NCBI GenBank assembly: GCA_964016885.1 | Contig: OZ024747.1 | Coordinates: forward strand, 21,638,001 to 21,702,000 | Direction: 5' to 3' | DNA length: 64,000 nucleotides | Source: Eledone cirrhosa | Lineage: Eukaryota | In this document: positions 18,071-21,000 of the stretch, in pieces | Numbering within the stretch: position 1 is the first letter of the stretch | How the letters are laid out: the number at the start of each line of letters is the position of its first letter | The notes under the pieces: generated by a model | The model's input: only the letters and a program-made list of their open reading frames with translations | Told to the model about the DNA's origin: nothing | Database searches by the model: none | Program-made: the position numbers and the translations under genes

Positions 18071-21000
18071 TATATATATATATGTATGCATATATATATA
18101 TATATATATTTATATATATGCATACATATATATATATATATATTTATATATATGCATACATATATATATATATATATATTTATATATATGCATACATATA
18201 TATATATATATATATATATATATATATGCATATATATTTATATATATGCATACATATATATATATATATGCATATATATTTATATATATGCATACATATA
18301 TATATATATATATATGCATATATATTTATATATATGCATACATATATATGCATATATGTTTATATATATGCATACATATATATATATATATATATATATA
18401 TATATATATATATATATATATATATATATATATATGCATATATATATATATATATATATATATATATATGCATATATATATATATATATATATATATATA
18501 TATATATATATATATGCATATATATATATATATATATATGCATACATATATATATATATATATATATATATATATGCATATATATATATATATATATATG
18601 CATACATATATATATATATATATATGCATACATATATATATATGCATACATATCTATATATATATATATATGCATACATATCTATATACATATATATATA
18701 TATATATATATATATATATATATATGCATACATATATATATATATATATATGCATACATATCTATATATATATATATATGCATACATATCTATATATATA
18801 TATATATGCATACATATCTATATACATATATATATATATATATATATATATATATATATATATATATATGCATACATATCTATATACATATATATATATA
18901 TATATATATATATATATATATGCATACATATCTATATATATATATATATATGCATACATATATATATACATATATATATGCATACATATATATATACATA
19001 TATATATATATATATATATATATGCATACATATCTATATATATATATATATATATGTGCATACATATATATATATATATGTGCATACATATATATATATA
19101 TATGTGCATACATATCTATATATATATATATATGAGCATACATATATATATATATATATACATACAAATATATATATATATATATATGTATACATATATA
19201 TATATATATATATATATGCATATATATATATATATATAGATATGTATGCATACATATATATATATATATGCATACATATATATATATGCATATATATATA
19301 TATATATATATATATATATGCATATATATATATATATATATATATATGCATATATATATATATATATATATATATATATATATATATATATATATAGGAA
19401 CCAGTAAGACCCCGACAGCTGAGCTCAAGCCGTTTCGACGGAACGGCTTGAGCTCAGCTGTCGGGGTCTTACTGGTTCCTATATATATATATATATATAT
19501 ATATATATATATATATATATATATATGCATATATATATATATATATATGCATATATATATATATGCATATATATATATATATATATGCATATATATATGC
19601 ATATATATATATATATATATGCATATATATATATATATATATATATATATGCATATATATATATATATATATATATATATATATGCATATATATATATGT
19701 ATGCATATATATATATATATGTATGCATACATATCTATATATATATATATATATGCATATATATATATATATATGTATACATATATATATATATATATAT
19801 TTGTATGTATATATATATATATATATGTATGCACATATATATATATATATAGATATGTATGCACATATATATATATATATGTATGCACATATATATATAT
19901 ATATGTATGCACATATATATATATATATGTATGCACATATATATATATATATATAGATATGTATGCATATATATATATATATATATATATATATGTATAT
20001 ATATATGTATGCATATATATATGTATATATATATGTATGCATATATATATATATATATAGATATGTATGCATATATATATATATATATATATATATATAT
20101 ATATATGTATATAGATATGTATGCATATATATATATATATAGATATGTATGCATATATATATATATATATATATATGTATGCATATATATATATATATAT
20201 ATGCATATATATGTATATATATATATATGCATATATATATATATATATGCATATATATATATATATGCATATATATATATATATATATATGCATATATAT
20301 ATATATATGCATATATATATATATATATATATATATATATATATGCATATATATATATATATATATATATATGCATATATATATATATATATGCATATAT
20401 ATATATATATATATATGCATATATATATGCATATATATATATATATATATATATATGCATATATATATATATATATATGCATATATATATATATATATAT
20501 ATATATGCATATATATATGCATATATATATATATATATATGCATATATATATATATATATATATATGCATACATATATGTATATATATATATATATATAT
20601 ATATATATATGCATACATATATGTATATATATATATATATATATATATATGCATACATATATGTATATATATATATATATATATATATATGCATATATAT
20701 ATATATATATATATGCATACATATATATATATATATATATATATATATATATATATATGCATACATATATATGTATATATATATATACATATATATGCAT
20801 ATATATATATGCATACATATATATATATATATATATATATATATATACATATATATATATATGCATACATATATATATATATATATATATACATATGCAT
20901 ACATATATATATATATATATATATATATACATATATATATATATATATATATATACATATATTTAGTCTTCAATTTTATTATTATTACTATACATATATA

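What the first reader, a model, noticed from the sequence alone, without database searches (positions are those of the whole stretch)
18640..20160. About 1.5-kb fold-back of the microsatellite centred on the second half-hammerhead palindrome
Seen: the core 19397-19479 has the same arms as 2778-2898 but a shorter centre. Rare variants in the flanking array are mirrored in order: CATACAAATA 19161 / TATTTGTATG 19798, GTGCATACA units / TGTATGCAC units, and CATATCTAT / ATAGATATG, with only (TA)n lengths differing. So the inversion duplicated the flank too. Inference: hairpin-primed synthesis at the element end doubles the array.
Basis: partly seen in the sequence, partly recalled or inferred. Interest (0 to 1): 0.72.

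Follow-up and report, generated by a model that had tools for sequence, protein, structure and literature searches.

The report
Mirror-copy scar at a Penelope stub
About 0.7 kb of a TA-repeat array is present twice, back to front, around the palindromic stump of a common Penelope-type jumping gene; this is likely the scar of a rare DNA-copying U-turn that overwrote the stump's usual tail, a known kind of mutation rather than the way the element normally inserts.

Summary
The mirror is real in the assembly: 28 interruption units pair in order across the 83-bp core (score 40 against at most 2.3 in shuffles). The arms are not identical apart from TA lengths: 9 units are unpaired and one base differs. 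The core is the head-to-head 3' end of a Hydra-type Penelope-like element (intact 786-codon frame elsewhere in the genome). About 4,500 such cores carry an 80-nt tail on exactly one arm. This one has no tail, and its right arm runs against the array's polarity, so the right side was likely overwritten by a template switch that copied the left arm and flank. It is rare. Eleven other cores with the same centre are one-tailed and unmirrored; 2 of 120 ordinary cores have short mirrored flanks, against 3 (perhaps 4) of 9 tail-less events. An exact 204-bp mirror with no element lies in the same window, so TA arrays do this unaided. The array gained about a fifth, not double. No spanning reads were available. 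The scan noted similar flank mirrors at other Penelope stubs in this genome.

The parts
18071..21222 (.). Interrupted (TA)n array holding the structure
   Evidence: Tandem Repeats Finder
18780..19396 (+). Left arm, likely the original flank (GCATAC units in the same polarity as both outer parts of the array); weaker extension to about 18600
19397..19434 (-). Left element arm: 3' end of the Penelope pseudo-LTR, ending at the tail-less stop GGTTCC|TA; holds GAAAC-stem III-GTC on the minus strand
19435..19441 (.). 7-nt centre: blunt join of a 45-nt and a 38-nt arm; the same centre occurs at 12 places in the genome
19442..19479 (+). Right element arm, also tail-less; the 80-nt tail expected on one arm is absent from the whole array
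19480..20182 (-). Right arm, likely the derived inverted copy of the left flank (GTATGC units, against the array's polarity); solid to 20153, last oriented unit 20177
20183..20566 (.). Mostly self-complementary TA/GC zone where the copy likely rejoined the right flank; native polarity resumes at 20567
   Evidence: the rejoining is inference
2701..2895 (.). Ordinary copy of the same family for comparison: tail 2701-2780 plus palindromic core 2781-2895, flanks not mirrored
3657..4083 (.). Element-free control: 3657-3860 is an exact 204-bp inverted copy of 3880-4083 inside a TA array

Best explanation
A 0.7-kb inverted copy of the left flank sits right of a tail-less palindromic Penelope stub, likely made when a growing DNA strand switched template at the stub's palindrome, copied back through the left arm and array, and rejoined the right flank in self-complementary TA repeats. 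Steps: (1) a Hydra-type Penelope-like element inserted in the TA array as the usual head-to-head pair (shown for the family; inferred for this locus), with its tail on the right arm (inferred). (2) During replication, or during gap filling at the end of that insertion, the nascent strand used the 38-bp arm identity plus the 47-nt TA run to move to the opposite-sense template (inferred). (3) It copied about 0.7 kb of left flank backwards (product shown). (4) It returned in the TA/GC zone at 20183-20566, deleting the tail and an unknown length of right flank (inferred). (5) Slippage then changed run lengths and unit numbers in the arms (differences shown, cause inferred). It has no function; it is a mutation scar.
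For: Mirror far above chance. Polarity: GCATAC units at 18120-19270 and again at 20567-20897, GTATGC units at 19699-20177, so the right arm is the foreign piece. Pattern counts: 4,519 one-tailed cores, 30 tail-less/tail-less hits, 21 tail/tail hits. Same centre at 12 loci; the other 11 are one-tailed (6 long arm, 5 short arm) and unmirrored, so the centre is an ordinary insertion junction. Of the 30 tail-less hits, 10 have a tail with altered first letters or displaced, 10 sit beside a neighbouring core copy, and 10 loci (9 events) are tail-less with no tailed twin. Of those 9, 3 are clearly mirrored (this locus, L077 about 150 bp of non-microsatellite flank, L099 about 70 bp) and 1 probably (L070), against 2 of 120 one-tailed controls; Fisher p = 0.002, or 0.019 without this locus. 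The core folds at -52 kcal/mol as ssDNA. An element-free exact 204-bp mirror in the same window, and 4 of 227 TA runs with complex flanks as fold-back centres (22 of 20,000 in cross-pairs), show that the host makes such copies at TA repeats. The product fits the four-point template-switch types 3-2-1-4 / 3-1-2-4 (PMC5453318, sections 4 and 6 read).
Against: No read spans the locus; laid short-read contigs and reads show only that the family exists, and the test at L077 did not cover the right junction. No unrearranged allele is in the assembly, so the lost tail is inferred. The tail-less class was sorted by hand after the search and is small; with all 20 hits lacking a directly attached tail, and this locus left out, p = 0.09. 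Four or five of 9 tail-less events have no mirror, so tail-less cores also arise otherwise. The five extra GC units next to the core need slippage or a further switch. The copy is longer than the fold-back insertions in the yeast study (10 to over 150 bp, PMC11724301 section 15). Timing (at insertion or later) is not resolved.
Confidence: 0.62

Rival explanations
1. Insertion-coupled snap-back (closest to the first reader): one cDNA primed from the left cut end stopped after 45 nt, its free 3' end folded back and was extended through the flank, then was joined to the right end. No tailed allele ever existed.
For: Both arms end at the same tail-less start site, as one copied-back cDNA predicts. 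A free 3' end exists during target-primed reverse transcription on both strands (PMC11167929, parts 1-2 read). Fold-back synthesis plus end capture is shown at yeast breaks (PMC11724301 section 15). L105, a tail/tail core with the natural 78-bp hairpin centre, has about five mirrored units by eye (score 6.5, below my threshold of 10).
Against: The 45-nt arm's own hairpin gives a 78-bp core, not this one; the junction here has no microhomology. The same centre recurs in 11 one-tailed, unmirrored copies. 427 cores have the 78-bp centre, and 30 of 30 sampled are one-tailed, with at most one diverged mirror. L077 has a common centre with a 2-nt loop.
Confidence: 0.16
2. Assembly or read artefact: a fold-back read at the strong hairpin, or a mis-join, created the second arm.
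For: Strong hairpin inside low-complexity DNA; no spanning reads seen; a 200-N gap with duplicated ends lies 10 kb away.
Against: The mirror stops after 0.7 kb and both outer flanks differ. The arms differ by whole units and one base, whereas the element-free mirror keeps 204 bp of TA runs exact, so the consensus resolves run lengths; a single-molecule chimera would give equal arms. At L077, L099 and L070 the element arms differ by substitutions. Thousands of equally strong cores are assembled without mirrors.
Confidence: 0.1
3. The array had already folded back at a TA run, and a rare tail-less insertion later landed in the centre.
For: About 2% of TA runs are fold-back centres (4 of 227); L134 and L122 look like insertions into such centres (18-22 bp); an element-free mirror lies in the window.
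Against: It needs two rare events: about 5 unmirrored tail-less events among about 4,570 cores, times about 2%, predicts roughly 0.1 case, against 3-4 seen (my arithmetic). The TA run is 47 nt on both sides of the core.
Confidence: 0.1

Closest known systems
Hydra-clade Penelope-like elements with inverted pseudo-LTR and one-sided tail (PMC8557442, passages and section 11 read; PMC3846280, passages; PMC11167929, parts 1-2 of 4)
   Same: [quoted passage not shown]
   Different: This copy has no tail and a mirrored flank, which the passages I read do not describe; the tail is 80 nt rather than 30-40; the hammerhead core is non-canonical.
Short-range template switch, four-point model types 3-2-1-4 / 3-1-2-4 (PMC5453318, abstract, sections 4 and 6 read)
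   Same: One switch-and-return event that replaces a stretch with a reverse-complement copy of its neighbour and extends an existing inverted repeat.
   Different: The copied piece is about 0.7 kb and the return is in a self-complementary microsatellite; the ancestral allele needed to place the four points is missing.
Local fold-back inversions at double-strand breaks in yeast (PMC11724301, abstract and section 15 read)
   Same: Hairpin-primed copy of DNA beside the break, then capture by the other end.
   Different: Those are mostly 5-34 bp (up to over 150) and start from a microhomology at the end, which this centre lacks.

Membership tests
Hydra-clade PLE (the core's family) | Single ORF with RT and C-terminal GIY-YIG endonuclease | tested here: met
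   786-codon open frame in L036 with YRDD at 415 and VIY...YIG at 658. Pfam scan gave 0 families; Atlas neighbours carry GIY-YIG, RVT_1 and HTH_animal on part of their members.
Hydra-clade PLE (the core's family) | RWK motif, DKG changed to DKT, CxCX5C linker, no CX2-5CxxC finger, CxxC and CxH near the end | tested here: met
   RWR at 104 (R for K), DKT 184, CxCX5C 639, no CX2-5CxxC, CxxC 737, CxH 765; one Cys only between the GIY and YIG words.
Hydra-clade PLE (the core's family) | Pseudo-LTR tandem/inverted structure, tail, (TA)n target | tested here: met
   L036 has a tailed inverted copy, a tandem pLTR and a 3,118-bp period, ending in TA; 4,519 one-tailed cores.
Hydra-clade PLE (the core's family) | Canonical hammerhead in the pLTR | tested here: not met
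   GAAAC, palindromic stem III and GTC are present, but AGAATTA stands at the CUGANGA position in the intact copy; Rfam found no hammerhead in the window.
Hydra-clade PLE (the core's family) | Placement in the Hydra clade on an RT tree | not tested
   No reference set was fetched; the assignment rests on motifs.
Template-switch inverted duplication | Reverse-complement copy of adjacent DNA forming a long inverted repeat | tested here: met
Template-switch inverted duplication | Homology at the switch and return points | tested here: met
   38-bp arms plus 47-nt TA at the switch; self-complementary TA/GC zone at the return. Exact points cannot be placed.
Template-switch inverted duplication | Ancestral allele explained by four switch points | not testable with these tools
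   No second allele in the assembly; no spanning reads.
Self-primed cDNA snap-back | Centre equals the hairpin of the free 3' end, with microhomology | tested here: not met
   Predicted 78-bp core; observed 83-bp with overlap 0.

The most novel reading that the evidence does not exclude
Penelope insertion itself sometimes copies host flank backwards: the endonuclease cuts (TA)n, and repair of the two-ended intermediate folds back and duplicates the target. On this reading the many element-free TA-centred fold-backs (about 2% of TA runs) are abortive cuts by the same enzymes, making TA-targeting Penelope elements a genome-wide engine that lengthens and flips microsatellite arrays.
Probability: 0.18. 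Interest if true: 0.6.

Novelty: new member of a known kind. Interest (0 to 1): 0.3.

Why it matters
It is a clean, well-controlled example of a transposon-made palindrome acting as a turning point for template switching. The lost tail works as a built-in marker: tail-less cores are enriched for mirrored flanks, which gives a way to count such events among about 4,500 near-identical palindromes (3-4 found). If the copy is made during insertion, it would expose a step of the unresolved Penelope integration cycle. As it stands it is a rare mutation scar of a known kind.

Tried and rejected
Reads: 4 runs laid on the core showed the family in three of them, and no listed piece crossed the centre. 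4 runs laid on L077 gave an exact 155-nt contig over the left junction, expected either way, and nothing across the right junction in the rows shown (15 of 27 joints listed). Both are inconclusive. The run search found no holder of half the flank's words. No second allele in the assembly. Rejected 'every core mirrors its flanks': 120 one-tailed controls gave L134 (18 bp) and L055 (diverged, score 9.5); L037 scored high only through related repeats on both sides and was not counted. Rejected as mirrors: L073/L074 (direct tandem copy with self-complementary CG units), L031 (related repeats), L100 (inversion centred on a TA spacer). Timing test by shared arm variants: 0 rare shared against 28 private in 110 of 120 usable controls; this locus has no variants, and L070 shares two uncommon ones between its arms, suggestive only. 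Rfam: one tRNA-like hit, no ribozyme. The large GC-skew switch near 35700 did not score as a mirror. Literature: searches returned no paper on flank-copying at Penelope palindromes; this covers open-access full text only. PMC13282606 and PMC6765202 (passages) and bioRxiv 10.64898/2026.07.22.740005 (abstract) added nothing on it. Supplements were not read; the Hydra files of PMC8557442 may bear on clade and ribozyme status.

Full report
Observation. The array 18071-21222 holds an 83-bp core with perfect 38-bp arms and a 7-nt centre. Reducing the array to interruption units, the reverse complement of the left side pairs with the right side over 28 units (19349-18785 with 19527-20147): 22 with the same TA-run length, 5 within 2 nt, 1 off by 6. 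The score is 40.3 against at most 2.3 in 60 shuffles, and a direct comparison scores 0. The claim that only TA lengths differ is wrong: six units are right-only, three left-only, and one base differs.

What the core is. The arm 21-mer has 11,510 exact matches in the genome. Locus L036 holds an intact element: a tailed inverted copy, a tandem pseudo-LTR, a 786-codon frame with RT and C-terminal GIY-YIG, and a 3' end running into TA. Its motifs match the description of the Hydra clade of Penelope-like elements; earlier notes of this scan gave me the Hydra lead, and I built no tree. Inverted 5'-truncated copies, a tail on one end and TA targeting are published features, and two reverse-transcription start sites explain the tail. 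The arm holds GAAAC, a palindromic stem III and GTC, but the intact copy has AGAATTA where CUGANGA belongs, so it is a hammerhead-like motif of untested activity rather than half of a canonical ribozyme.

What is unusual here. Pattern counts give 4,519 cores with one tail, 30 hits with TA on both sides and 21 with tail starts on both sides. The window's first core is ordinary and unmirrored. The second has no tail anywhere in the array. Oriented units read GCATAC on the left and again from 20567 on, but GTATGC between 19699 and 20177, so the right arm is the inserted copy. The exact centre occurs at 12 loci; the other 11 have one tail and no mirror.

Genome-wide test. I examined all 30 tail-less hits, all 21 tail/tail hits and 120 of the 4,519 one-tailed cores. 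Ten tail-less hits have a mutated or displaced tail and ten adjoin another core copy, mostly tandem duplications. Ten loci (9 events) are tail-less with no tailed twin: this locus, L077 and L099 are clearly mirrored, L070 probably, the rest not. Controls gave 2 of 120 (18 bp, and one diverged), with one repeat-caused score set aside. Fisher p is 0.002, 0.019 without this locus, and 0.09 under the loosest grouping without it. Among tail/tail hits L122 has a 22-bp mirror and L105 a short one below threshold. So flank copying recurs but touches about 0.1% of cores.

The element is not required. In the same window 3657-3860 is an exact 204-bp inverted copy of 3880-4083 with no element at the centre, and 4 of 227 TA runs with complex flanks are centres of short fold-backs, against 22 of 20,000 cross-pairs.

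Mechanism. Most likely (0.62) an ordinary one-tailed stub was overwritten: a nascent strand used the arm identity and TA run to change template, copied the left arm and about 0.7 kb of flank backwards, and rejoined in the self-complementary zone 20183-20566, losing the tail. This matches the four-point template-switch model. Whether it happened at a later fork or during gap filling of the insertion is open. True snap-back of a free cDNA end (0.16) is less likely, because that end's hairpin predicts the 78-bp core, the junction here is blunt, and 30 of 30 sampled 78-bp cores, out of 427, are one-tailed. Insertion into an older fold-back (0.10) needs two rare events. An artefact (0.10) fits poorly with a short mirror, distinct outer flanks and unit-level differences between arms, but it is not excluded: laid reads were inconclusive and no other allele is assembled.

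Novelty. The element structure and the mutation type are both known. Three literature searches found no description of flank copying at Penelope palindromes, and unchecked notes of this scan report similar cases at other stubs in this genome. What this locus adds is the tail-loss marker and a measured rarity. The array gained about a fifth of its length, not a doubling. Interest 0.3.

Noticed in passing
window 3657-3860 / 3880-4083: Exact 204-bp inverted duplication inside the first TA array with no element at its centre.
   Followed up: yes
L039:1875, L138:666, L139:1357, L084:1857: Short fold-backs centred on plain TA runs: 4 of 227 runs with complex flanks. Their cause is unexplained.
   Followed up: partly
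L036:7664-7724 and related families in L071, L099: Hammerhead-shaped motif with AGAATTA (AGAAATA in two relatives) in place of CUGANGA; the varying letter falls at position 7 and A3-U8 could pair. Activity untested; numbering recalled.
   Followed up: partly
genome-wide: About 99% of the family's palindromic stubs (4,519 of 4,570 pattern hits) have a tail start on exactly one arm, on either arm of a given centre (6:5 and 15:15), consistent with priming from both cut ends at two start sites.
   Followed up: partly
L033, L069, L071, L094, L096, L073/L074: Direct tandem duplications of core plus TA spacer; L067, L078 and L100 hold a copy in opposite orientation.
   Followed up: partly
window 31434-31580: Fold-back stub of another family with a canonical CTGATGA...GAAAC...GTC hammerhead on both strands (31454 minus, 31515 plus).
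   Followed up: no
window 31003-31202: 200-N gap; about 125 bp before it (30879) recurs after it (31328), a likely contig-end overlap.
   Followed up: no
window 29113-29500, 31975-32545, 4165-5127, 41487-43518: Remnants of at least four other GIY-YIG/Penelope-like frames; the last two hit the L036 protein at 33-51% identity.
   Followed up: no
window 33600-40419: TA array whose polarity switches from C-type to G-type interruptions near 35700 without a detectable mirror.
   Followed up: partly
window 12490-12553: tRNA-like Rfam hit (32.4 bits), probably the head of a SINE.
   Followed up: no
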